Part shown: positions 24,435 to 34,805 of the stretch, in pieces
Numbering within the stretch: position 1 is the first letter of the stretch
How the letters are laid out: the number at the start of each line of letters is the position of its first letter
DNA from: Deltaproteobacteria bacterium
Lineage (GTDB): Bacteria > UBA10199 > JADGCS01
Assembly: GCA_024233595.1 (NCBI GenBank)
Contig: JACKPK010000010.1
Coordinates: forward strand, 2,373-66,372
Reading direction: 5' to 3'
DNA length: 64,000 nt
The notes under the pieces: generated by a model
Seen by the model: the letters and a program-made list of their open reading frames with translations, nothing else
Database searches by the model: none
Told to the model about the DNA's origin: nothing
Program-made: the position numbers and the translations under genes

Positions 24435-26159
24435 TTAAAAACTTTTGTTTTTAAGCTCTACATTGATGCGTTCTAAAGTCTCGCTCCAACTATTAACCTG
24501 TTCTTGATGAAACAAAGTGAGGCTCTGAAACCACTTGGACGCTGTTTTGTTTTGATTATTTGGTGCGGGCTCAAAATCGTGCCCATGAACCCGGTGACAA
24601 AGCATCCAGGTTTCTTTGCCTAGAGCGGCAGATAAAATCGCGTTGCAGGAATTAATCGAAATCACCAAATCGAGGCTCGCGATCAAAGCGGCCAGCTCAT
24701 CGAGATCGTCTTTTAAATTGATGTTCTCTAAGTGTAATAAATCAAGTCCGGTGCGTTGGGTGAAATCAGCGCGTTCTTTGCTAGTGTCGCCATATTGTAA
24801 ATCAACAAAACAAATGTCTTTTAAAGCGAGGATGTTTTGCCAGCTTAAAAGAGGGATGCTGGAACGGTTGCGCACACTACGGTCCAGGCCTTCTGATTTA
24901 GCAAAGCTGCGCCAATTGATCCCAATAAAATGCTTTTTGTCAGAAAGTGAGCTGAGTTTTTGTCGCCATTTATTTTGTTTTTTTGTGCAGGCCTTTAAAT
25001 AGGATGGCAAGGCTTCGTGTTTGGGTTCAAAGAAAAGAGGTCCCAAAGCGGTGGCGCTGGACGCGTAAAAATCGATGGTGTCGTCTTGGCTTGGTTCAGG
25101 AATGGGGCGATTTGTGGGCACAACTTCTGTTCCTGGAAAACTGCGTTCAAATAACGTTTTTAAACGAGCGTCAGCTTCTATGATGAGGAAGTCGACTTCC
25201 TGTTGCAGTTTAGAAAAAGTTTGCGCAAAAAAAATCTCGTCTCCCACACCTTGCTCAGAGAGAAGCAATAAAGCCTTTTTGTTTAATGGTTCTCCGGTCC
25301 ATAACGTTTGCGAAAGGTGTTGGAGGTGTTTGTATTCGGGCAGGCTGAGTCTGGCTTCGTAAGCTTGTTGCGCTTCTTTAAAAAGGTTTAATTTAAAAAG
25401 CACCAGAGCCTTGTGGAAACTCACTCTTTTGTCGTTTGGGGTTAGTCTTTCGGCCTGCTCAAATTCGGCAAGGGCTTTAAGCCACTGCTCTTGCTCCTTG
25501 TAAACCAAAGCTTTTTGACAAAGCGCCGGCGTGTAATTGGGGTTGATTTGCAACACTGTGTCTATGAGTTTGGTTGCTGCTTCAAGATTGCCAAGGTCTA
25601 ATTCAAGGGCAGCTAAATTGTGTAAGGCAGGGATGTGTCTAGGAGCAATTTCTAAGGCATTTGTGTAGGCAGCGTGGGCTTTGCGGTCTTCGCCTAAACT
25701 CCGAAAGCAATTGCCCAAATTAGTCCACGTTTTGAGGTGTTTGGGCTGTGCTTGCAAGGCTTTGTGAAAATACTCCAAAGCTTGCTCGTGATTTTGTGTG
25801 GTCGACAACAGAATTCCTTTTTGACACAGGGCTTCGGTGTAATGAGGATCTAGCTGTAATGCCTGATCAAAGGCTTGTGCAGCTTTGCTAGGGTTTGCTG
25901 TTTTTTGGAAAGCCAGTCCCAAATTAAACCAAGCTGCTTTGTTGTCTTTTTGAAGGTCCAAGCTTTTTTGTAAATGAAGAATGGCATCAGACTCTTGTCG
26001 GCTTTGGATCAGAGCGGTTCCCAAAAGAAAGTGGGCCTGGTCTGAATGACTGTGTTGTTTTAAAAAGTCGCGGTAAAGTGAGATCGCTGTTTTGATGTCT
26101 CCTTGTTGGTGGAGATTTTTTATGTGTTCTAAATTTTGAGGAGATGTTTTTTCACCCAT
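24435..26159 (-). CDS. TPR-repeat protein with C-terminal GT9 (heptosyltransferase)-like domain
   Basis: 574 aa, with ~8 TPRs followed by 'LLLSEQGVGDEIFF' and 'LDELAALIASLDLVISINSCNAILSAALGK', typical of GT9-like TPR fusion proteins. Confidence 0.65.
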   Translation of the reverse strand: MGEKTSPQNLEHIKNLHQQGDIKTAISLYRDFLKQHSHSDQAHFLLGTALIQSRQESDAILHLQKSLDLQKDNKAAWFNLGLAFQKTANPSKAAQAFDQALQLDPHYTEALCQKGILLSTTQNHEQALEYFHKALQAQPKHLKTWTNLGNCFRSLGEDRKAHAAYTNALEIAPRHIPALHNLAALELDLGNLEAATKLIDTVLQINPNYTPALCQKALVYKEQEQWLKALAEFEQAERLTPNDKRVSFHKALVLFKLNLFKEAQQAYEARLSLPEYKHLQHLSQTLWTGEPLNKKALLLLSEQGVGDEIFFAQTFSKLQQEVDFLIIEADARLKTLFERSFPGTEVVPTNRPIPEPSQDDTIDFYASSATALGPLFFEPKHEALPSYLKACTKKQNKWRQKLSSLSDKKHFIGINWRSFAKSEGLDRSVRNRSSIPLLSWQNILALKDICFVDLQYGDTSKERADFTQRTGLDLLHLENINLKDDLDELAALIASLDLVISINSCNAILSAALGKETWMLCHRVHGHDFEPAPNNQNKTASKWFQSLTLFHQEQVNSWSETLERINVELKNKSF

Positions 26160-26333
26160 GGTCTTTTCTTAAAGCAATAGTTAAACGCGAAATAAAGGCT
26201 TATTTGGGCATTTATCTGTTTAAAAAAAATTGCCTAAGCATGCGTGTTTGGGTAGGGGTGTTCAGATAGGCCTTTAATAAGTTTTTATTTTGGGCAGTTT
26301 TGACTTTTAAAAACCATGTTAAGGAGAACAAAA

Positions 26334-26564
26334 ATGGCTAAGAAAAAAGCAAAAAAGAAAGCAACCACTACTAAGAAAAAATCAAAAGAAATGCTTTTGG
26401 TTGGTAGCAAAACTAAAGACGCTTTGCGTTCTGCAGGATGCAACGTAGCTGGTGATGCATTGGATGCATTGAACGAAGTTGTTTACTGGTACATCCAACA
26501 AGCTTCTACACGTGCACAAGCAAACGGTCGTAAGACAGTTCGTGGTCACGATTTCATGGCTTAA
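26334..26564 (+). CDS. Histone-fold DNA-binding protein (bacterial histone, Bd0055-like) with Lys-rich N-terminal tail
   Basis: 76 aa. AAGGAG lies 7 nt upstream of ATG 26334. The core 'MLLVGSKTKDALRSAG.NV.GDALDALNEVV......AS.RAQANGRKTVRGHDF' carries the histone-fold 'GRKT(V/I)...D' signature. The tail is 'MAKKKAKKKATTTKKKSKE'. Confidence 0.7.
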   Translation: MAKKKAKKKATTTKKKSKEMLLVGSKTKDALRSAGCNVAGDALDALNEVVYWYIQQASTRAQANGRKTVRGHDFMA

Positions 26565-26586
26565 TTTGTATTTTATTTAAGCATAA

Positions 26587-26620
26587 AAAAACCCCGGTAC
26601 CTTGCGGTATCGGGGTTTTC
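26587..26620. terminator. Bidirectional rho-independent terminator between the histone gene and rpsT
   Basis: The stem aaaaccccg / cggggtttt is flanked by an A-run upstream and a T-run downstream. Confidence 0.75.
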
Positions 26621-26645
26621 TTTTGTCTAAAATCTTTAAAAAAGA

Positions 26646-26888
26646 TTACGCAGCGTTTTTCATAGCGCGTGCTACTTTTTTAGCAGCTGATTTACGTTTG
26701 ATCACACCTTTGCGAGCAGCAGTGTCTAATTTGCTTTGCAAAAGGCTCAAAAGTTTTGTGGCTTCTTCTTTAGGCGCATTGAGGAACTTTTTAGTCAATG
26801 TGTGTAGTTCTGCTTTAATGCTTTTGTTGCGAGCGTTTCTTTTTAAGTTCTGACGGTGCCTTTTGAGTGCCGATTTGTGGTTTGCCAT
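26646..26888 (-). CDS. rpsT: 30S ribosomal protein S20
   Basis: 80 aa starting 'MANHKSALKRHRQNLKRNARNKS', the canonical S20 N-terminus. The longer ORF-track start (27056) is rejected. Confidence 0.9.
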   Translation of the reverse strand: MANHKSALKRHRQNLKRNARNKSIKAELHTLTKKFLNAPKEEATKLLSLLQSKLDTAARKGVIKRKSAAKKVARAMKNAA

Positions 26889-27197
26889 AAAAATCTCCAA
26901 TAAATTCAAACTTTTTAAACGCCTATTCTGAATAAGCGTTTGGGAGCGCGTATCTACCAAAAACTTTGTCTCAGAGTCAATGAATCTTCCAAGAGAATCC
27001 CAAAGAAGCCTCTGATTTAGCCTGAATTGCATGACGAAGGTCTTATTTTTTCGCAAAATTATATGACGAAGGTGCTCTGGGTTTTCCTGTCTATTCTATA
27101 TAAATATAATAAAAACAATGTGTTATGTTTTTTGTCGTGTTTTTCAGGTGCAATTGAATCTTTTTACAGCTTTCCTGTTCTCTTATATAATACGTCT

Positions 27198-28238
27198 ATG
27201 GGTGATTTACGGTCAGGAGATAACTTGGGGCTGCATCGGGTGCTTGATACCCCCAAGGTCATTCCTCAAAACGCGAAACAATTGGATGCCAAGTCTTCGT
27301 TGTATGACAATGAACTTTGCGCGCAGGTGCATTTTTTACAGATTGATTCAGCGAGTTTCAATCAGCTTGCCAAGGCTTACCCTGATGACAGCGATTTAAA
27401 AGCGGCGGTGATGAGCATTGTGAATGAGCGGGGCAAAATGCAGAATCCTGTGACGGGTTCTGGAGGTATGTTTTTAGGGCAGATTGCCGAAATTGGTCCG
27501 AAGTTTCCAAACAAAGACATTCAGATTGGTGATGAGATCTGTTCTTTGATTTCATTAACAGCGACACCTCTTTTGCTTGAAGAAATCGAAAGTGTTGATC
27601 GTAAAAAAGAACGTTTGGCTGTTCGTGCCAAAGCTTATCTTTTTGCTAACTCCATTTTTGCTAAAATGCCGCAAGGGATTTCTCGTGGAGCTGCGTTGGC
27701 ATCCTTTGATGTTTGTGGCGCGCCCGCTTTGGCATTGCATCACGCCAACGCAGGGCAGGTCGTTTTTTTGATGGGGCTTGGCAAAGCTGGTCGACAAGTG
27801 GCTAGCGCTTTAAGGAATCGCTTTGGCAAGGACATCAATTTATTTGGCTGTGACGCTAGTCAGAATGCGGTCGATGATTTTAATCAAGAGTTTGAGTCTG
27901 GGCATTTTTTTACAGCGAACGCACAGGATCCGATTGCATTGCGACAGGCTTTGGTGTCGCGAGCACAAGATCTTGCTGACCTGAGTATCAATTGCGTCAA
28001 CGTACCTGACACAGAGATGCCAAGTATTCTTTGCACCAAAGACCAAGGTTGTTGTGTGTTTTTTTCGATGGCAACTGATTTTCAAAAAGCCACTCTGGGT
28101 GTTGAGTCAGTTGGCAAAGATATCAATTTAATCATGGGGCGTGGCTATGTCCCGGGTCATTCAGACTTGGTTGTGACTTTGCTTAAAAAAGATCCTTGGT
28201 TACTTAATTTTTTTGAAAATAATTTTGGCGGGGAGTGA
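27198..28238 (+). CDS. kdd: L-erythro-3,5-diaminohexanoate dehydrogenase
   Basis: 346 aa from ATG 27198. It has the blocks 'ERGKMQNPVTGSGGM', 'INCVNVPDTEM' and 'FFSMAT' that I recognise from Kdd of lysine fermenters. Confidence 0.8.
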   Translation: MGDLRSGDNLGLHRVLDTPKVIPQNAKQLDAKSSLYDNELCAQVHFLQIDSASFNQLAKAYPDDSDLKAAVMSIVNERGKMQNPVTGSGGMFLGQIAEIGPKFPNKDIQIGDEICSLISLTATPLLLEEIESVDRKKERLAVRAKAYLFANSIFAKMPQGISRGAALASFDVCGAPALALHHANAGQVVFLMGLGKAGRQVASALRNRFGKDINLFGCDASQNAVDDFNQEFESGHFFTANAQDPIALRQALVSRAQDLADLSINCVNVPDTEMPSILCTKDQGCCVFFSMATDFQKATLGVESVGKDINLIMGRGYVPGHSDLVVTLLKKDPWLLNFFENNFGGE

Positions 28239-29593
28239 TGATGGAACCTCATATCGAAAATCAAAATGAACAAATGATTCCTGAGCACCGACGTTTGCGC
28301 TCGGGCGAGTTCTGGCAAGTGATTCCTGCTTATCAAAGCGTCGATGAAAAAACATTTTTGGATTACAAATGGCAGCTTAAGCATTCTATCACCAGTGTGA
28401 AAAAACTTTTAGAAACGCTCAAAGACCTTGTGCCGGCAGATTTTTATAAAGATGTGGAAAAAGGTTTTCATCATGTTCCCATGGCGGTGCGCATTTCTCC
28501 TTATGTGATGTCTTTGATCGATTGGGACAACCCTTACGAAGACCCTTTGCGCAGACAGTTTTTGCCATTGGCCAGTCAGCTTAAACCTGACCATCCCGAA
28601 TTGCATTTGGACACTTTGCACGAGCAGGCTGATTCGCCTGTACCGGGCTTCACGCATCGTTATCCCGATAAAGCGCTTTTACTCGCTCTGGATATTTGCC
28701 CAGTGTATTGTCGTTATTGCACGCGCAGTTATGGTGTGGGTTTTGATACCGATGAAGTCGAGAAGGTTAAGTTTTCGCAAGACGTGGCACGTTACCAAAA
28801 AATATTTGAGTACATTAAAAGTCAGCCACAGTTAGAAGACATTGTGCTCAGTGGTGGCGATGCCTACATGTTGCGCTCCGAGCGCTTGCGCTATCTTGGT
28901 GAAAATCTTTTGGCGATCCCGCATGTGCGTCGTATTCGCATTGCGACCAAAGGACCGGCCATTATGCCCATGAAGCTTTTAACTGATCACGATTGGTATG
29001 GGGCTTTGCGCGACATTGTTGAACAAGGGCGGTACTTGCACAAAGAGGTTTGTGTTCACACGCATTTTTCTCACCCTCAAGAAGTCAGTGATATTTCAAA
29101 ACGCGCCATGGATCGCCTTATGGAAGACGGCATCACTGTGCGCAACCAAGCTGTTTTGCAACGTGGTGTTAACGATGACAAAAACATCATGGTGCTTTTG
29201 GCAAGACGTTTGGCTTACCTGAATGTGCAATCGTATTATGTTTACATGCATGATTTGGTGAAAGGGGTAGAGGATTTGCGCACCACTTTGCAAACTGGGT
29301 TGGATATCGAAAAATTTGTACGGGGTTCCACTGCTGGTTTTAACACGCCTAACTTTGTTGTGGATGCTCCTGGTGGTGGTGGTAAACGCAGCATTCATAG
29401 CTACGAACATTATGATCCCGAAACAGGAATTTCTATTTACACCGCACCCAGTGTGAAACCAGGGCAGTATTTTTATTACTTTGACCCCATCGACACGCTC
29501 TCGCCAAATATTCAAGCAGACTGGCAAAACCAAACCAAACGCGAAGAAATGAAAGAAGCCGCTCTTGTGGCAGCCAAACATGGTCGTAAATGA
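28238..29593 (+). CDS. kamA: Lysine 2,3-aminomutase (radical SAM)
   Basis: ~451 aa with radical-SAM motif 'CPVYCRYCTRS' and the KamA pattern 'LSGGD'...'VDAPGGGGK'. The start overlaps the kdd stop (GTGATGATG). Confidence 0.9.
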   Translation: MMEPHIENQNEQMIPEHRRLRSGEFWQVIPAYQSVDEKTFLDYKWQLKHSITSVKKLLETLKDLVPADFYKDVEKGFHHVPMAVRISPYVMSLIDWDNPYEDPLRRQFLPLASQLKPDHPELHLDTLHEQADSPVPGFTHRYPDKALLLALDICPVYCRYCTRSYGVGFDTDEVEKVKFSQDVARYQKIFEYIKSQPQLEDIVLSGGDAYMLRSERLRYLGENLLAIPHVRRIRIATKGPAIMPMKLLTDHDWYGALRDIVEQGRYLHKEVCVHTHFSHPQEVSDISKRAMDRLMEDGITVRNQAVLQRGVNDDKNIMVLLARRLAYLNVQSYYVYMHDLVKGVEDLRTTLQTGLDIEKFVRGSTAGFNTPNFVVDAPGGGGKRSIHSYEHYDPETGISIYTAPSVKPGQYFYYFDPIDTLSPNIQADWQNQTKREEMKEAALVAAKHGRK

Positions 29594-29728
29594 TATTGAT
29601 GATCAAAAAAAGAGTCTCTTGAAAATGTTAACCTTGTTAAATGCTGTTAACTTTTGTTTGAACTCAAAGTTCGTGCAAAGACGGTTTTTACTGTAGGCAA
29701 TTGTTAAGAATGAGGGTAGAATATTAGG

Positions 29729-32089
29729 ATGCGTCTTTTGGATTCTAAAATCTCTAGTCGTTCTATTCTCATGCTTTCTATAGCGACTTCAGTGGTGATT
29801 TTTTTGGCCTTTTTCCAATTGCATCACGAAGCTAAAAATCAAAATGAAGCTTACATTCAAAACCAGATCGATCATTTGAATCGCAATCTGGCTAGCGAGT
29901 TTGAACTCAATTTTACTCACCTCTTAAAAGCTCAAGAACGAATGGCCGCACGCTGGGAAGTTAATAAAGGCACTCCTCTCTATAAGTTTGAACAAGATGC
30001 TTTGCAGTATTTATCGAGTCACCACGAAATCCAAGCTCTAGAGTGGGTGAATGCCGACGGGGTTGTGGAATGGATCGTTCCTTTAAAAGGCAATGAAGGT
30101 GTTGTGGGGTGGGATAATAAAAAAAGCCCTGAGCGTTGGCGTGCTTTGCAAAGAGCGCGACGTTTGGATGAACTCGCGTTTAGTGATCCCATCAACTTAA
30201 TCCAGGGTGGCAAAGGCTTTTTGGTGTTTTCGCCAATTTTGTACGATAAAAAATTCGATGGTTTTGTTTTGGCGGTTTACCGCTTTGAAGAGTTGATCAA
30301 ATCTTTGATTGCATTGGATCAGCGACGCGAAGAAAATTACATTGAAGTTTTTTTTAACGGGCAAGCCGTTTTCCAATCTAAAAATAAGCCACCGGTGGAT
30401 TCTGATATTGCCTCCTTCACTGAAGTGAAAGTCATGGGACAGCGCTGGGGTTTTCGATTTGTTCCGGGACCACAGCTATTGCACTCATATCATTCTAATA
30501 TGCATGAGATTCTTCTTGGGCTTGGGGCTTTGGTGTCCTTTTTGGTGGGCATTGCGGTCTTCTTGGGATTGCACGCTTCCCGAAGAAAAACCCAAGAAGA
30601 GGAAGTGCGTCGTTTCTTGGATTTGATTTTTTCTAATATCCCTTTGTTGGTCATAGTGAAAAGCATTAAAGAAGACCGGATTGTTCGAATCAATCATGCG
30701 GCGGAATTGTTTTTTAAGGACTCGCTTCATGATCCTGCTGTTAATGAGCAACTCGAAAAAATCATAACGGCAGAAGGCGAAGTTGAACTGCCTTGTTCAA
30801 CTGACCGACGTTGTTTTTTAGAATGCCGTTCTTTGGTTTTAAATGATCATCAAGGACAGGCAGCGTATCTTTTGCAAATTGCAGAAGATGTGACCTTGAA
30901 GAAAAAAGAACGCGATAAAAGAAAGAATCTAGAAGCCCAGCTCATGCAATCACAAAAACTCGATGCGCTTGGAAAATTAGCTGGTGGTGTGGCGCACGAT
31001 TTTAACAATATCTTGGGCGGCATTATGGGTTACACCTCTTTGCTCAAGAGTAAGTTTTCTGAACAAGCAGATGTTGTTAAAAAATTGAATGTGATCGAAA
31101 GCTCAGCCATGCGTGGTGCGGATCTCACAAAAAAAATGCTCGGCTTTGCGCGCAAGGGTCAGTACGAGCAGGCTGTTTTGTCAGTGAATGATGTGGCTAC
31201 TGAAGTTTGTGATTTGTTATCAGAATCAATGCCCAAATCAATTCGCCTACATATCAATTTGAATCCCGATGTGGCCAGCATGAAGGGCGACACCACGCAA
31301 ATTTTTCAAGTCATTCTCAATGTTGCTAATAATGCTATAGATGCCATGCCAGACGGTGGCGAGTTGTCGGTTTCAAGCAAGGTCACTGTTTTAGAAGAAG
31401 ACGATGCGCAAAAAATGGGATTAACAGGTGGACGTAAATTCACAGAATTGCGCATTTCGGACACCGGCATGGGGATGCCTCAAGATGTCATTCAAAGAGT
31501 TTTTGAGCCCTTTTTCACAACCAAAGAAGTTGGTAAAGGCACCGGTTTGGGACTTGCGATGGTGCATGGGATCATGGCTAATCATGGTGGTGGTGTTTTG
31601 ATTGAATCGCAAGAAGGCAAGGGAACGACCTTGCGTTTATTCTTTCCGATCTTTCATCAGCATGAAACCAAAATGCACGAAACCAAAGGTCTTGATTCTG
31701 GTGAAACAAAAATTTTGCAAAACAGTCGCGTCTTGATTGTGGATGATGAGCCTATGATTCGAGATTTAGTCAGCGAGCTTTTGGAACCTTTGGGTGCTAA
31801 CATCATCACAGCAGGTGATGGTTTGGAAGCGGTTGAAAAATTCGAAGAACAAAAGGAACTCGATTTGGTGGTGCTGGATGTGATCATGCCTAATTTGGAC
31901 GGCTTGGCCACCTATAAAAAAATCAAAGAGATCGCTCCGCAAACAAAGGTTGTTTTTGCCAGTGGTTATTCTGAAAGTGATGAGATCAGAGAATTGCGTA
32001 AAACGGGTTTGGTGGATTTTGTTCAAAAACCCTTTAAGACCGAGCAGTTGGTTAATAAGGTTTCAACCCTGATTGCCAAATCCAAGTGA
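29729..32089 (+). CDS. Hybrid sensor histidine kinase (periplasmic sensor - PAS - HisKA - HATPase - REC)
   Basis: 786 aa with two TM segments bracketing a ~230-aa extracytoplasmic domain. H-box 'GGVAHDFNNIL', G-boxes 'DTGMGM' and 'GTGLGLA', and a receiver domain 'VLIVDDEP...VLDVIMPNLDG'. Confidence 0.9.
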   Translation: MRLLDSKISSRSILMLSIATSVVIFLAFFQLHHEAKNQNEAYIQNQIDHLNRNLASEFELNFTHLLKAQERMAARWEVNKGTPLYKFEQDALQYLSSHHEIQALEWVNADGVVEWIVPLKGNEGVVGWDNKKSPERWRALQRARRLDELAFSDPINLIQGGKGFLVFSPILYDKKFDGFVLAVYRFEELIKSLIALDQRREENYIEVFFNGQAVFQSKNKPPVDSDIASFTEVKVMGQRWGFRFVPGPQLLHSYHSNMHEILLGLGALVSFLVGIAVFLGLHASRRKTQEEEVRRFLDLIFSNIPLLVIVKSIKEDRIVRINHAAELFFKDSLHDPAVNEQLEKIITAEGEVELPCSTDRRCFLECRSLVLNDHQGQAAYLLQIAEDVTLKKKERDKRKNLEAQLMQSQKLDALGKLAGGVAHDFNNILGGIMGYTSLLKSKFSEQADVVKKLNVIESSAMRGADLTKKMLGFARKGQYEQAVLSVNDVATEVCDLLSESMPKSIRLHINLNPDVASMKGDTTQIFQVILNVANNAIDAMPDGGELSVSSKVTVLEEDDAQKMGLTGGRKFTELRISDTGMGMPQDVIQRVFEPFFTTKEVGKGTGLGLAMVHGIMANHGGGVLIESQEGKGTTLRLFFPIFHQHETKMHETKGLDSGETKILQNSRVLIVDDEPMIRDLVSELLEPLGANIITAGDGLEAVEKFEEQKELDLVVLDVIMPNLDGLATYKKIKEIAPQTKVVFASGYSESDEIRELRKTGLVDFVQKPFKTEQLVNKVSTLIAKSK

Positions 32090-32346
32090 GGGTGATCATT
32101 CGGTTCTTGCCAAGCTTGCCGGGGTTCGATATCACTCCCGTGGCTTTTTGAGCCCTATTAATGGGGGCCAAAACACAACCTTTTACCACATGGGAACAAG
32201 GTTTTACGGACTGACCGGTGCCAGATTTCAAAATCGATATTGCCAATCGATTCCGCAGGCGGCACTGTTATGCTACATTTTTATGGAATGTCGTTGCGAG
32301 AGCGTTTTTTGTCATCTCCTTCCGTTAAGACTCTGTTTTCAAACTC

Positions 32347-33921
32347 ATGACCAAAATTAATTTGGATCGCGATATCATCGATCATTGTCGGGAACTTGCT
32401 GAATCTGTTGCTCACCCGGTGCTCATCTACATCAATCGACACTCCACTGTTTCTATTGAACGCTCTGTGTTGCGTCTCTTGGGTTTTCAAGGCGCTCATG
32501 AAGTCGAAAAGGGCATGCCTTATCCCGTTTGCAATCTGATTGTCGACAAGCTGGGGCAGGACAAACTCAAAATGGGTGTGGCCTCGGTCATTGCTTCTAT
32601 TAAAAATCGTTACCCGCGTTGGAACCAAGCCAAAATGGCTGAGAAAATCATCAAAGGCGAAGTGAACTTTGAGCGTCTCGAAATTCTACCGCCTGATAAA
32701 GCGCAAGCTTTGCTCAAGCCTTGGATCGACACAGCTGTGCGCCACATCGATAAAATGCGTTACCGCAAAGAAGACATGCGCCACAAACTTGGCCGCGGTA
32801 AAAAAATGGGTCCTTTAAAATACATCATTGTGGCCACTGGTAACATATACGAAGACGTCAAACACGCGCAGTCAGCTGCCAAGCAAGGTGCTGATATCAT
32901 CGCCGTGATTCGTTCCACAGCACAAAGTTTATTAGATTATGTGCCGCACGGTGCCACAACAGAAGGCTTTGGTGGAACCTTTGCCACGCAGGAAAATTTT
33001 AAAATCATGCGCGAGGCTTTGGACGAAACCTCTGAAGAATTAGGCCGCTACATTCGTCTTTGCAATTACTCATCGGGTCTTTGCATGTCTGAAATTGCGG
33101 TCATGGGTGCTGAAGAAGGATTAGATTACCTTCTTAACGACGCCATGTATGGGATTTTGTTTCGTGACATCAACATGAAGCGCACGCTCATTGATCAGCA
33201 CTTTTCACGCATGGTGATTGCACGTGCAGGCATTGGCATTCAAACAGGCGAGGACAATTACCTCACCACCGCCGATGCTTTTCACAATCATCATCAGGTT
33301 TTGGCTAGCCAGTTCTTGAACGAAAACTTAGCCAAGCACGCTGGGTTGCGCGATGAGCAAATTGGCTTGGGACATGCCTTTGAAGTCGATCCCATGGTCG
33401 AAGACAGCTTTTTAATTGAATTAGCTATGGCGCAGATGGTGCGAGAAATTTTCCCACGTTGCCCCATTAAATACATGCCACCAACGCGACACAAGCAAGG
33501 TGATATCTTTTTTAGTCATGTCATGGATGCCATGTTCAATATGGTTGGTTCCATGACGGGGCAAAGCATTCAACTTTTGGGAATGGCAACAGAGGCCAAC
33601 CACAATCCTTATTTGCAGGATCGTTTTTGGGCTTTAAAAAGCGCCAACTATATTTTTTCGGCTTGTCGTTCTTTGTACGACGACGTGCAGTTTGTACCCA
33701 ATGGCAAGGTCATGCGTCAGGCGCGTCAGGTTTTAGACCGCACGCACCGCTTTTTGCGCAAGATCGATCAGCAAGGTTTGTTTGAATCCATTGAGCACGG
33801 CATGTTTGCCGAAATGCCGCGCGCCAAAGATGGTGGCAAAGGGCACGATGGCATTTTTGAAAAAGCAAGACAGTACTTTAATCCTTTTTACGATCTCTTT
33901 CAGGGACAAGGACGGAGATAA
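32347..33921 (+). CDS. kamD: Lysine 5,6-aminomutase alpha subunit
   Basis: 524 aa. Its size, position immediately upstream of the B12-binding beta subunit and TIM-barrel-like pattern fit KamD. Confidence 0.8.
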   Translation: MTKINLDRDIIDHCRELAESVAHPVLIYINRHSTVSIERSVLRLLGFQGAHEVEKGMPYPVCNLIVDKLGQDKLKMGVASVIASIKNRYPRWNQAKMAEKIIKGEVNFERLEILPPDKAQALLKPWIDTAVRHIDKMRYRKEDMRHKLGRGKKMGPLKYIIVATGNIYEDVKHAQSAAKQGADIIAVIRSTAQSLLDYVPHGATTEGFGGTFATQENFKIMREALDETSEELGRYIRLCNYSSGLCMSEIAVMGAEEGLDYLLNDAMYGILFRDINMKRTLIDQHFSRMVIARAGIGIQTGEDNYLTTADAFHNHHQVLASQFLNENLAKHAGLRDEQIGLGHAFEVDPMVEDSFLIELAMAQMVREIFPRCPIKYMPPTRHKQGDIFFSHVMDAMFNMVGSMTGQSIQLLGMATEANHNPYLQDRFWALKSANYIFSACRSLYDDVQFVPNGKVMRQARQVLDRTHRFLRKIDQQGLFESIEHGMFAEMPRAKDGGKGHDGIFEKARQYFNPFYDLFQGQGRR

Positions 33922-33923
33922 TC

Positions 33924-34805
33924 ATGGCGAGACCAAATAAAAAGAAAAGTTCCAGAGGCAGAGGTCGTCGCCCGCAATCTACACAAAATCAAGCGGAGCG
34001 CTCTTCTCAAAATTCACAGGTTGCGGCAGCCAAAGAAGCACCCGTTAAACGTAAGTTTGCTGGTAAAATTCGACTTTATGGCGATGTCGAGAATGATGGT
34101 GTTGTGCAGATCAGTTTCACCTTGCCGATGCCGGCTTGTGATGAAGCTCGTGTGGCAGCTTTGCAGTTCGCAGAAAAAATGAACATCCAAAAGGCTTCGG
34201 TCTTGCACATGGAAGCCATTGACGACGATTTTTCGTTTTTTGTTGTTTATGGTCAATGCGAAGCAGAAGTGGATTTGGAGCAAATTGAAGTTCCTAAATT
34301 AGACCACCCGCAATATGGATTTCACGAAATCAACGACATGCTTGGTCAAAAGCTAGATCGTAAGCTTGTTGTGTTGGGAGCTTGCATTGGCACTGACGCG
34401 CACACTGTGGGCATTGATGCCATCTTCAACATGAAAGGCTATCTTGGTGATTATGGTTTGGAGCGTTACTCGTGTTTTGAAGCCATCAACCTAAGAGCGC
34501 AGGTCGATGTGAAAGACTTGGCCGATAAAATCATCGAGAAGCAAGCCGATGTTGTTTTGGTATCGCGTGTTGTGACACAGCGAGATTCGCATATCGAAGA
34601 ATTCAAGAAGTTGTTGGCAGAGTTGTCGTCTCGCGAAAACGTGCCGGCAAAACTCATTAAGATTTGCGGCGGTCCACGCATGACTCACAAAGAGGCGATC
34701 GACATTGGTTACGACGCAGGCTTTGGTCCTGGAACATTGCCAGGGCAGGTGGCCAGTTACATTGCCACCGAAGCTTTACAGCGTTTTGCCGATCAACAAG
34801 ATTAA
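33924..34805 (+). CDS. kamE: Lysine 5,6-aminomutase beta subunit (B12-binding), with basic N-terminal extension
   Basis: 293 aa with cobalamin-binding 'GTDAHTVGIDA' (DxHxxG), 'GGPR' and 'GYDAGFGPG'. The first ~45 aa are Lys/Arg/Ser/Gln-rich. Confidence 0.85.
   Translation: MARPNKKKSSRGRGRRPQSTQNQAERSSQNSQVAAAKEAPVKRKFAGKIRLYGDVENDGVVQISFTLPMPACDEARVAALQFAEKMNIQKASVLHMEAIDDDFSFFVVYGQCEAEVDLEQIEVPKLDHPQYGFHEINDMLGQKLDRKLVVLGACIGTDAHTVGIDAIFNMKGYLGDYGLERYSCFEAINLRAQVDVKDLADKIIEKQADVVLVSRVVTQRDSHIEEFKKLLAELSSRENVPAKLIKICGGPRMTHKEAIDIGYDAGFGPGTLPGQVASYIATEALQRFADQQD

What the first reader, a model, noticed from the sequence alone, without database searches (positions are those of the whole stretch)
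26334..26564. Bacterial histone-fold protein with a eukaryote-style lysine-rich N-terminal tail
This 76-aa ORF has a strong SD (AAGGAG, 7-nt spacing). It sits back-to-back with rpsT across a bidirectional terminator, a context expected for an abundant protein. Residues 20-76 read as a minimal histone fold ending in ...ANGRKTVRGHDF. The 'GRKT(V/I)xxxD' block is the loop-2/alpha-3 signature of archaeal HMf-type histones. The overall layout resembles, from memory, the Bdellovibrio bacteriovorus histone Bd0055, which coats DNA in an unconventional way. The unusual part is the 19-residue tail MAKKKAKKKATTTKKKSKE (10 Lys, a TTT patch), which I do not associate with the characterised bacterial histones. 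A tail of this kind could add DNA bridging or compaction, or act as a modification platform.
Basis: partly seen in the sequence, partly recalled or inferred. Interest (0 to 1): 0.75.

Follow-up and report, generated by a model that had tools for sequence, protein, structure and literature searches.

The report
Tailed bacterial face-to-face histone gene

Summary
The 76-aa ORF at 26334-26564 (+) has AAGGAG 7 nt upstream, and a bidirectional hairpin terminator shared with convergent rpsT.

It is a histone fold. The AlphaFold2 model (pLDDT 87.7) superposes on the Leptospira perolatii histone HLp at 0.6 Å (TM 0.97).

The family assignment needs correcting. The nearest relative is HLp, a face-to-face (FtF) α3-truncated histone that forms DNA-wrapping tetramers, not the dimeric Bd0055/HBb. 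The FtF tetramer residues R60, N64 and R66 are invariant here; HBb has S and D at the first two.

The tail is real and translated:
- In 19 of 81 loci the codon at M20 is not a start codon, yet an upstream MAKK-type start with its own SD remains.
- 111 of 120 close homologues have tails of at least 10 residues.
- Tails keep K/(K+R) near 0.85 from 30% to 74% genome GC.

The tail is not novel. Schwab et al. 2024 (PMC11390915) already state that positively charged N-terminal tails occur in most bacterial FtF histones.

Tail function is still untested, and the tail resembles the H1 C-terminal domain more than an H3/H4 tail. Verdict: new member of a known kind, modest interest.

The parts
26321..26326 (+). 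Shine-Dalgarno AAGGAG, 7 nt upstream of ATG 26334
   Evidence: Read directly. In 74 of 80 related loci the script's chosen start had an SD core 3-11 nt upstream; in two of the six exceptions (L015, L019) the heuristic had skipped the real long-tail start.
26334..26564 (+). CDS of a 76-aa α3-truncated (face-to-face type) histone, stop codon included
26334..26390 (+). [quoted passage not shown]
   Evidence: pLDDT about 59-72 and no secondary structure. Family-wide tail survey.
26391..26561 (+). Codons 20-76: histone fold with α1 24-33, α2 42-63 and truncated α3 71-75. It contains the RxTxxxxD motif (R66, T68, D73) and the FtF interface residues R60, N64 and R66
   Evidence: AlphaFold2 model. Foldseek to HLp: TM 0.97, rmsd 0.6 Å. 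Invariant columns.
26588..26619 (.). Bidirectional intrinsic terminator shared with convergent rpsT (26646-26888, - strand)
   Evidence: 14-bp stem, 7 GC pairs. (-25.0 and -24.2 kcal/mol, z about -6, U-tracts on both strands).

Best explanation
The gene encodes a bacterial face-to-face (FtF) α3-truncated histone that acts as a nucleoid-associated DNA-packaging protein.

Shown here:
- Residues 20-76 form a minimal histone fold with a truncated α3, nearly superposable on HLp from Leptospira perolatii.
- The fold carries the RD-clamp/RxTxxxxD motif.
- It has the three residues that build the FtF dimer-dimer interface (R60, N64, R66).
- It has most of the HLp DNA-backbone contacts (S25, K26, K28, R32, G40, T68).
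- Translation starts at ATG 26334, so a 19-residue disordered tail that is 53% lysine precedes the fold.

Inferred by homology to HLp (PMC12701072):
- Two handshake dimers close face to face into a rigid torus-shaped homotetramer.
- That tetramer wraps roughly 60 bp of DNA around its positively charged rim, without sequence specificity.

Inferred from composition and from analogy with the lysine-rich tail of Deinococcus HU and the H1 C-terminal domain:
- The four flexible tails (+9 each, likely starting at Ala2 after Met removal) add low-affinity, multivalent, non-specific DNA contacts.
- These contacts would neutralise charge on wrapped or neighbouring DNA, raising affinity and favouring compaction or bridging between duplexes.

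The gene is a stand-alone monocistronic unit with a strong SD and a strong terminator.
For: Fold:
- PDB sequence search: HLp 9QT0 E 2.2e-9, ungapped over residues 15-74; HBb 2e-3; HTkC 4e-3.
- Family profile: HLp 2.6e-16, HBb 1e-9, HTkC 1.2e-7.
- AlphaFold2: pLDDT 87.7, helices 24-33, 42-63 and 71-75.
- Foldseek against PDB: HLp TM 0.97, rmsd 0.6 Å, 46% identity. HBb and HTkC come next, then archaeal and eukaryotic histones.

FtF signature:
- Invariant columns are R60, N64, R66, K67, T68, R70 and D73.
- R60, N64 and R66 map onto HLp R49, N53 and R55, which that paper reports as the conserved tetramer-assembly residues.
- HBb has S and D at the first two positions.

Start codon and tail:
- The codon at M20 is not ATG/GTG/TTG in 19 of 81 loci, while the upstream start remains (in nearly all cases MAKK-type).
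- The chosen upstream start has an SD core 3-11 nt before it in 74 of 80 loci. An SD core before the internal codon appears in only 7, at long spacing (13-14 nt) in all but one.
- Tails are at least 10 aa in 111 of 120 close homologues, with median length 20 and median net charge +9.
- K/(K+R) is 0.84-0.90 in tails across genome GC 0.30-0.74. Lysines in high-GC genomes are encoded 108 AAG to 11 AAA.

Literature:
- HLp tetramer and roughly 60-bp wrapping.
- Tails common in bacterial FtF histones.
- The Deinococcus HU lysine-rich tail drives non-specific binding and bridging.
Against:
- Two HLp interface residues differ (S52→A63, T61→H72).
- The query has two residues after F74. HLp ends at the equivalent Phe, and in the archaeal FtF model the C-terminal carboxylate takes part in the interface.
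- The archaeal FtF histone HTkC has E where the query has N64.
- Three HLp DNA contacts are not conserved (A13→G24, T27→V38, T56→K67).
- There are no expression or proteomic data for this organism.
- The σ70 consensus scan found no promoter upstream.
- Tail function has not been tested for any member. HLp itself has only a short, non-lysine-rich N-terminus.
Confidence: 0.8

Rival explanations
1. One reading: a Bd0055/HBb-like 'bacterial dimer' histone that stays dimeric and bends DNA or coats straight DNA as a filament, rather than wrapping it.
For: HBb is a significant sequence and structure match: E 2e-3, profile 1e-9, Foldseek TM about 0.85. It shares the truncated α3, the S-K motif at the start of α1 and the RKT motif.
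Against: HLp is a much better match in every search and aligns without gaps, whereas HBb needs a loop-1 indel. Bacterial dimers are defined by lacking the R48/N52 interface residues. The query family has both, and they are invariant.
Confidence: 0.1
2. Translation starts at the internal ATG 26391, giving a tail-less 57-aa histone. On this view the lysine-rich stretch is only an A-rich 5' leader.
For: M20 is an ATG and is conserved as Met in most homologues. Tail-less natural variants exist, for example MSD-, MAD- and MNGE-MLLVGSK.
Against: There is no SD before 26391, while AAGGAG sits 7 nt before 26334. In 19 of 81 loci the equivalent codon is TCG, CCG, GCG, ATC, GTA or GTT and cannot initiate, yet the upstream start persists. 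Tails stay in frame and lysine-rich (AAG codons) even in genomes of 65-74% GC. Tail-less variants still carry 2-5 residues before this Met, so it is a structural residue; the equivalent position is L in HLp and V in HBb.
Confidence: 0.03
3. The tail is mainly a regulatory platform in the eukaryotic sense. Reversible lysine acetylation or methylation of the tail would tune chromatin compaction or recruit readers.
For: Lysine, not arginine, is retained in high-GC genomes: K/(K+R) is about 0.84 against a much lower background. That fits selection for a modifiable residue. Schwab et al. raised, and doubted, ZZ-domain reading of such tails.
Against: Tail sequence and length are not conserved, ranging from 3 to 38 aa in the loci, so there are no fixed modification sites. 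No acetyltransferase, deacetylase or any other gene is a conserved neighbour in 80 loci. The lysine preference is equally typical of unmodified H1-like and AKKA-type DNA-binding tails (own knowledge). This reading is also not exclusive of the best explanation.
Confidence: 0.1
4. It is not a chromatin protein but an RNA- or ribosome-associated basic protein, as the position next to rpsT and the r-protein-like MAKK start might suggest.
For: It is adjacent to rpsT. It is a small, basic protein (pI 10.2).
Against: The rpsT adjacency is absent from all 80 related loci. The fold and the DNA-contact residues are those of DNA-binding histones solved with DNA.
Confidence: 0.03

Closest known systems
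HLp, the face-to-face (FtF) α3 histone of Leptospira perolatii (PDB 9QT0/9QT1/9QT2; PMC12701072)
   Same: - It is the best sequence, profile and structure match: 45-46% identity, ungapped, rmsd 0.6 Å.
- It has the same truncated α2 and α3.
- It has the same RD clamp.
- It has the same tetramer residues R49/N53/R55, equivalent to R60/N64/R66.
- It shares the S-K 'paired ends of helices' motif and the α1 lysines.
   Different: - HLp has only about 8 non-basic residues before the fold and ends exactly at the Phe. The query has a 19-aa tail with 10 lysines and two extra C-terminal residues.
- The motif is RKT in the query and RTT in HLp.
- A63 and H72 replace HLp S52 and T61.
- The Leptospira SMC/MAP synteny is absent here.
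Tail-bearing bacterial FtF histones of Schwab et al. 2024 (for example E1WYC3 of Halobacteriovorax marinus and D0LYZ1 of Haliangium ochraceum; PMC11390915)
   Same: They share the category (face-to-face) and the feature, a positively charged disordered N-terminal tail. Halobacteriovorax and Kofleriaceae genomes carry members of the query's own family at about 60-70% identity.
   Different: I could not read the E1WYC3 or D0LYZ1 sequences, so orthology is inferred. The window's organism is an uncultured MAG that NCBI labels 'Deltaproteobacteria bacterium'.
HBb / Bd0055, the bacterial dimer histone of Bdellovibrio bacteriovorus (PDB 8CMP, 8FVX)
   Same: Both are α3-truncated histone folds with the S-K motif and the GRKTV loop 2, and both are bacterial nucleoid proteins.
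   Different: HBb lacks the R and N interface residues, is strictly dimeric, has essentially no tail, and has a loop 1 one residue longer.
Lysine-rich tails of other bacterial nucleoid proteins (Deinococcus radiodurans HU N-tail; from own knowledge also mycobacterial HupB/MDP1 C-tail, Chlamydia Hc1 and Pseudomonas AlgP) and the eukaryotic H1 C-terminal domain
   Same: All are disordered, low-complexity K/A/S/T/P tails attached to a folded DNA-binding core. In Deinococcus HU the tail provides the main non-specific DNA binding and bridging. This is the model for how the tail works here.
   Different: The folded core is unrelated (HU fold or winged helix rather than histone fold), so there is no homology. 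The tail here is shorter than those.
Eukaryotic core-histone and Asgard archaeal histone N-terminal tails
   Same: The position (N-terminal to a histone fold), the disorder and the positive charge are the same.
   Different: No sequence motif is conserved. Length varies 0-50 aa within the family. The composition is K/A-dominated rather than the K/R/G/T/S mix of H3 and H4. No evidence of modification or readers exists.

Membership tests
Histone fold, α3-truncated ('α3') histones (Schwab et al. 2024) | Three helices α1-L1-α2-L2-α3 with a long central helix, matching solved histones | tested here: met
   AlphaFold2 helices 24-33, 42-63 and 71-75, pLDDT >= 90 for 55 residues. All top 50 Foldseek PDB hits are histone-fold proteins, and the top 9 are α3 histones.
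Histone fold, α3-truncated ('α3') histones (Schwab et al. 2024) | α3 of only 3-5 residues and α2 shorter than in nucleosomal histones | tested here: met
   α3 is 71-75 (5 residues) and α2 is 22 residues. TM to HLp, HBb and HTkC is 0.84-0.97, against 0.56-0.62 to HMfA/HMfB.
Histone fold, α3-truncated ('α3') histones (Schwab et al. 2024) | RxTxxxxD motif (RD clamp plus loop-2 Thr) | tested here: met
   R66, T68 and D73 are invariant in 52 family members.
Face-to-face (FtF) histones | Torus-shaped homotetramer of two dimers (the feature that defines the category) | not testable with these tools
   Only monomer prediction was available. The tetramer is inferred from HLp (SEC-MALS and crystal).
Face-to-face (FtF) histones | Conserved dimer-dimer interface residues: R48/N52/R54 of the FtF HMM, equal to HLp R49/N53/R55 | tested here: met
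   R60, N64 and R66 align to them without gaps and are invariant in the family.
Face-to-face (FtF) histones | Remaining HLp interface residues (S52, T61, C-terminal F63) | tested here: inconclusive
   F74 is conserved, but A63 and H72 differ, and two residues follow F74.
Face-to-face (FtF) histones | Nearest characterised relative is an FtF member | tested here: met
   HLp is first in the phmmer, profile and Foldseek searches.
Face-to-face (FtF) histones | HLp DNA-backbone contact residues (A13, S14, K15, K17, K21, T27, G29, T56, T57) | tested here: met
   Six of nine are kept or conservatively replaced: S25, K26, K28, R32, G40 and T68. G24, V38 and K67 differ.
Bacterial dimer histones (HBb/Bd0055 type) | Absence of the R48 and N52 interface residues; dimer only | tested here: not met
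   The query has R60 and N64. HBb has S and D at these columns.
Archaeal nucleosomal (HMf-type) histones | Full-length α3 of about 10 residues and a four-helix-bundle tetramer interface | tested here: not met
   α3 is 5 residues. The Pfam CBFD_NFYB_HMF and NCBIfam archaeal-histone models are not significant. TM to HMfA is only about 0.6.
Eukaryote-type core-histone tail | Conserved tail sequence with fixed modification sites | tested here: not met
   Only composition is conserved. Length is 3-37 aa among the close homologues, and the sequences cannot be aligned.
Eukaryote-type core-histone tail | Post-translational modification and reader or writer enzymes | not testable with these tools
   No conserved neighbouring gene of any kind in 80 loci. 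Testing this needs proteomics.

The most novel reading that the evidence does not exclude
The lysine-specific tail (K/(K+R) about 0.85 regardless of genome GC, variable length, K/A/S/T composition) may act as a built-in linker-histone-like module. Four such tails projecting from an HLp-type tetramer would turn a DNA-wrapping particle into one that also bridges or condenses neighbouring DNA. Compaction might then be tuned by lysine acetylation. This would give many bacterial phyla a 'nucleosome plus H1 in one 8-kDa polypeptide'. No tail of a bacterial FtF histone has yet been tested experimentally.
Probability: 0.3. Interest if true: 0.55.

Novelty: new member of a known kind. Interest (0 to 1): 0.3.

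Why it matters
Bacterial histones were characterised only in 2023-2025, and only two have been studied (HBb and HLp), neither with a lysine-rich tail. This gene belongs to a very large, strongly conserved tailed clade. At least 552 loci were found in species-representative genomes of Acidobacteriota, Planctomycetota, Bdellovibrionota, Myxococcota, Elusimicrobiota, Krumholzibacteriota and other phyla. Pfam and NCBIfam do not recognise the protein, and NCBI labels it 'hypothetical protein'.

The finding itself adds little beyond one more member. The comparative results obtained here give a clean starting point for the experiment nobody has done: comparing a bacterial FtF histone with and without its tail. 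Those results are:
- The start codon is validated.
- Lysine, rather than positive charge alone, is retained against GC pressure.
- Tail length runs from a few residues to about 40.
- There is no conserved partner gene.

Tried and rejected
- Pfam and NCBIfam scans of the protein gave no significant family. The best hits were Synuclein at 0.037 and archaea_histone at 0.031, far below cut-off. The fold had to be established through the PDB sequence search and structure prediction.
- The look-up of encoding contigs found no record of the exact protein, so the organism is known only through NCBI's label 'Deltaproteobacteria bacterium'. I ran no further search on a taxonomic marker.
- Synteny: tblastn with rpsT, the TPR protein, kdd, kamA and the ANF-receptor protein found none of them in 80 related loci. 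All-against-all clustering of flanking ORFs found no neighbour shared across phyla, only a Kofleriaceae-specific block. Both the 'ribosomal-protein neighbourhood' idea and any partner-enzyme idea were dropped.
- The σ70 promoter scan of 26100-27100 found nothing, so the promoter is unidentified.
- No HU/IHF and no second histone were found in the window.
- Giant 'hits' in the representative search (P0202, 3900 aa) are Calx-beta repeat proteins and therefore spurious.
- A single-chain concatemer to mimic a tetramer was considered.
- The K/(K+R) background comes from mechanically called ORFs, including spurious Arg-rich antisense ORFs in high-GC loci. It therefore exaggerates the contrast. The flat 0.84-0.90 in tails across GC content is the robust part.

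Full report
**1. Observation**

The ORF is exactly as described. ATG 26334 to TAA 26564 encodes 76 aa, MAKKKAKKKATTTKKKSKE-MLLVGSKTKDALRSAGCNVAGDALDALNEVVYWYIQQASTRAQANGRKTVRGHDFMA.

- AAGGAG lies at 26321-26326, 7 nt before the ATG.
- The internal ATG is at 26391 and has no SD.
- rpsT is convergent at 26646-26888 (Pfam S20p 5e-19).
- The 81-bp gap contains a 14-bp-stem hairpin at 26588-26619, with an A-run on one side and a T-run on the other.
- The hairpin folds at -25.0 and -24.2 kcal/mol on the two strands, about 6 sd better than shuffles.
- An earlier in-frame ATG at 26316 lies 2 nt upstream of the SD, which therefore cannot serve it, and is not matched in homologues.

**2. The fold**

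Pfam and NCBIfam do not recognise the protein. NCBI calls the identical MAG protein 'hypothetical protein'. The sequence nevertheless matches solved histones:

| Solved histone | Sequence E | Family-profile E |
|---|---|---|
| HLp, Leptospira perolatii (9QT0) | 2.2e-9, ungapped over residues 15-74 | 2.6e-16 |
| HBb/Bd0055 (8CMP, 8FVX) | 2e-3 | 1e-9 |
| HTkC (9F2C) | 4e-3 | 1.2e-7 |

An AlphaFold2 model built on 52 homologues has mean pLDDT 87.7, with helices at 24-33, 42-63 and 71-75. Residues 1-19 have low confidence and no secondary structure. Foldseek against the PDB ranks HLp first (TM 0.97, rmsd 0.6 Å, 46% identity). HBb and HTkC follow at TM 0.84-0.89, then archaeal and eukaryotic histones at TM about 0.4-0.6. 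The histone-fold reading is therefore correct, and the protein belongs to the α3-truncated class.

**3. Which histone family**

Schwab et al. 2024 (PMC11390915) divide α3 histones into face-to-face (FtF) histones and smaller groups. FtF histones are defined by a torus-shaped tetramer built through conserved R48/N52/R54. The smaller groups include the 'bacterial dimers' such as HBb, which lack R48 and N52.

The HLp paper (PMC12701072) shows experimentally that R49, N53 and R55 make the dimer-dimer hydrogen-bond network, and that these residues are conserved among tetrameric bacterial FtF histones. In the ungapped alignment they correspond to the query's R60, N64 and R66. All three are invariant across the family, as are K67, T68, R70 and D73. 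HBb has S and D at the first two positions.

Of nine HLp DNA-backbone contacts, six are retained or conservatively replaced: S25, K26, K28, R32, G40 and T68.

I therefore file the protein as a bacterial FtF histone, not a Bd0055-type dimer. The caveat is that the tetramer itself could not be tested with the tools available. In addition, A63 and H72 and the two residues after F74 differ from HLp.

**4. The tail is real and is translated**

- Among the 120 closest database homologues, 111 have at least 10 residues before the fold. Median length is 20, median K+R fraction 0.48 and median net charge +9. 107 start with MAK-like sequences.
- I extracted the DNA of 80 related loci from species-representative genomes. 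In 19 of 81 loci (80 plus the window) the codon equivalent to M20 is TCG, TCT, CCG, CCC, GCG, ATC, GTA or GTT. None of these can initiate, yet the upstream start, MAKK-type in nearly all cases, is kept.
- An SD core lies 3-11 nt before the start the script chose in 74 of 80 loci. Before the internal codon an SD core appears in only 7 loci, at 13-14 nt spacing in all but one; in the four with 3-residue tails it is simply the upstream site.
- Natural tail-less variants (MSD-, MAD-, MNGE-MLLVGSK) still keep this Met internally, so it is a structural residue. HLp has L and HBb has V at this position.
- Tail composition is K 46%, A 24%, S+T 11%, E 5%, R 4% and P 2%.
- K/(K+R) in tails is 0.90, 0.83 and 0.84 in low-, mid- and high-GC genomes, with no correlation to GC (rho = -0.02). 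High-GC tails encode lysine 108 times as AAG and 11 times as AAA.

Lysine, and not merely A-rich DNA or generic positive charge, is therefore maintained. The background ratio is distorted by spurious ORFs and should not be quoted.

Tail length in the 80 loci ranges from 3 to 38 residues. 34 loci have short tails (10 or fewer, typically MAKKME) and 45 have long tails (12 or more). Only composition is conserved, not sequence.

**5. Context**

- The family is widespread. They come from Acidobacteriota, Planctomycetota, Bdellovibrionota (Bacteriovoracaceae, Halobacteriovoraceae), Myxococcota (Kofleriaceae), Elusimicrobiota, Krumholzibacteriota, Gemmatimonadota, Nitrospirales, Omnitrophota and others.
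- Fold identity to the query is 53-81% in the best aligned segment across these phyla.
- The rpsT adjacency occurs in none of the 80 loci. No other neighbour is shared across phyla. The gene is a stand-alone unit, and the rpsT argument for abundance does not generalise.
- No σ70-like promoter was found.
- No HU or second histone lies in the window.

**6. Mechanism**

The steps shown are the fold, the interface and DNA-contact residues, the start codon, and the tail's disorder and charge.

By homology to HLp, I infer that handshake dimers pair face to face into a rigid homotetramer. Its positively charged rim would wrap about 60 bp of DNA without sequence specificity, protecting fragments of about 35-72 bp.

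By composition and analogy, I infer that the four +9 tails add multivalent, low-affinity, non-specific DNA contacts. These would increase affinity and promote charge neutralisation, compaction or bridging. The lysine-rich N-tail of Deinococcus HU has just been shown to act this way. Met1 is probably removed, because Ala follows it (established MetAP specificity; own knowledge).

High abundance is plausible, since the Leptospira interrogans FtF histone ranks second in its proteome. It is untested here.

**7. Comparison with the literature, and novelty**

Hocher et al. 2023 wrote that most bacterial singlet histones lack long tails. Schwab et al. [quoted passage not shown]

Their supplement gives length histograms. 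It also aligns the tails of Halobacteriovorax marinus E1WYC3 and Haliangium ochraceum D0LYZ1 with the H3 tail. Both proteins are catalogued as face-to-face, and D0LYZ1 has a predicted tetramer. Halobacteriovorax and Kofleriaceae genomes carry members of the query's own family.

The protein is a new member of a known kind. Tail function remains open: the only FtF histones studied biochemically, HLp and HTkC, have no lysine-rich tail.

**8. Rivals**

- Bd0055-like dimer, 0.1: contradicted by the interface residues and by every ranking.
- Start at 26391, 0.03: contradicted by the SD position and the 19 non-initiating orthologous codons.
- Tail as a modification platform, 0.1, not exclusive of the best explanation: the lysine specificity is compatible, but the variable length and sequence and the absence of any linked enzyme argue against fixed sites.
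- Ribosome- or RNA-associated protein, 0.03: the synteny is not conserved.

**9. Verdict**

This is a new member of a known kind, with interest 0.3.

The most novel reading still open is that the tail acts as a built-in, possibly acetylation-tuned, linker-histone-like module on a wrapping tetramer. I give this a probability of about 0.3 and an interest of about 0.55 if true.

Noticed in passing
window 27027-34805 (+): Immediately beyond rpsT lies a lysine-fermentation gene set. It includes L-erythro-3,5-diaminohexanoate dehydrogenase (kdd, NF052381), a lysine-2,3-aminomutase-like radical SAM protein (28235-29593) and lysine 5,6-aminomutase alpha (32347-33921, NF052384, 3e-221). A CckA-like hybrid histidine kinase is inserted at 29729-32089. 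The proximity to a lysine-rich histone is probably coincidental, since it is not conserved in related loci.
   Followed up: partly
P0121-P0130 and others: Tandem doublets of this same fold (about 118-132 aa, two stretches, 45-53% identity to the query domain) are the top-scoring 50%-cluster representatives, and most lack a lysine-rich tail. A histone doublet is already reported for Bacteriovorax (PMC11789641).
   Followed up: partly
P0144, P0151, P0220, P0221, P0224, P0263: These are α3 histone-fold singlets and doublets that begin with what looks like a signal peptide or membrane anchor, for example MRHLAISLALVLFASATSFAAGAQRKPKEIVVVGSKVKD... This suggests exported or membrane-tethered histone-fold proteins. 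Pfam gives only weak DUF1931/DUF5805 hits for P0144. The transmembrane histones described by Schwab et al. carry the membrane segment at the C-terminus instead.
   Followed up: partly
P0196 (650 aa): This protein has a Sigma70 region 4 domain (residues 183-228) and a C-terminal α3 histone fold (593-648, 54% identity to the query domain). It may be a fusion of a regulator and a histone.
   Followed up: partly
query C36 and the C-termini of homologues: Position 36 alternates between Cys and Val across the family. Many Cys-36 members also carry one or two cysteines right after the HDF C-terminus (HDFCAC, HDFCVC, HDFCAM), and one has cysteines in its tail (P0018, KKSCKKCE). Because the C-termini lie at the FtF dimer-dimer interface, this could mean disulfide or metal cross-linking of the tetramer.
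   Followed up: no
L012 and L023 (same MAG, JASFRZ01): One Acidobacteriota MAG carries two tail-less copies (MAD-MLLVGSK...) on different contigs. Other Acidobacteriota carry long-tailed copies. Tailed and tail-less variants therefore coexist within a phylum, and possibly within a single genome.
   Followed up: no
window 24435-26159 (-): The upstream divergent gene encodes a 574-aa protein with an N-terminal TPR array (residues about 20-270). Its roughly 300-aa C-terminal half has no Pfam match.
   Followed up: no
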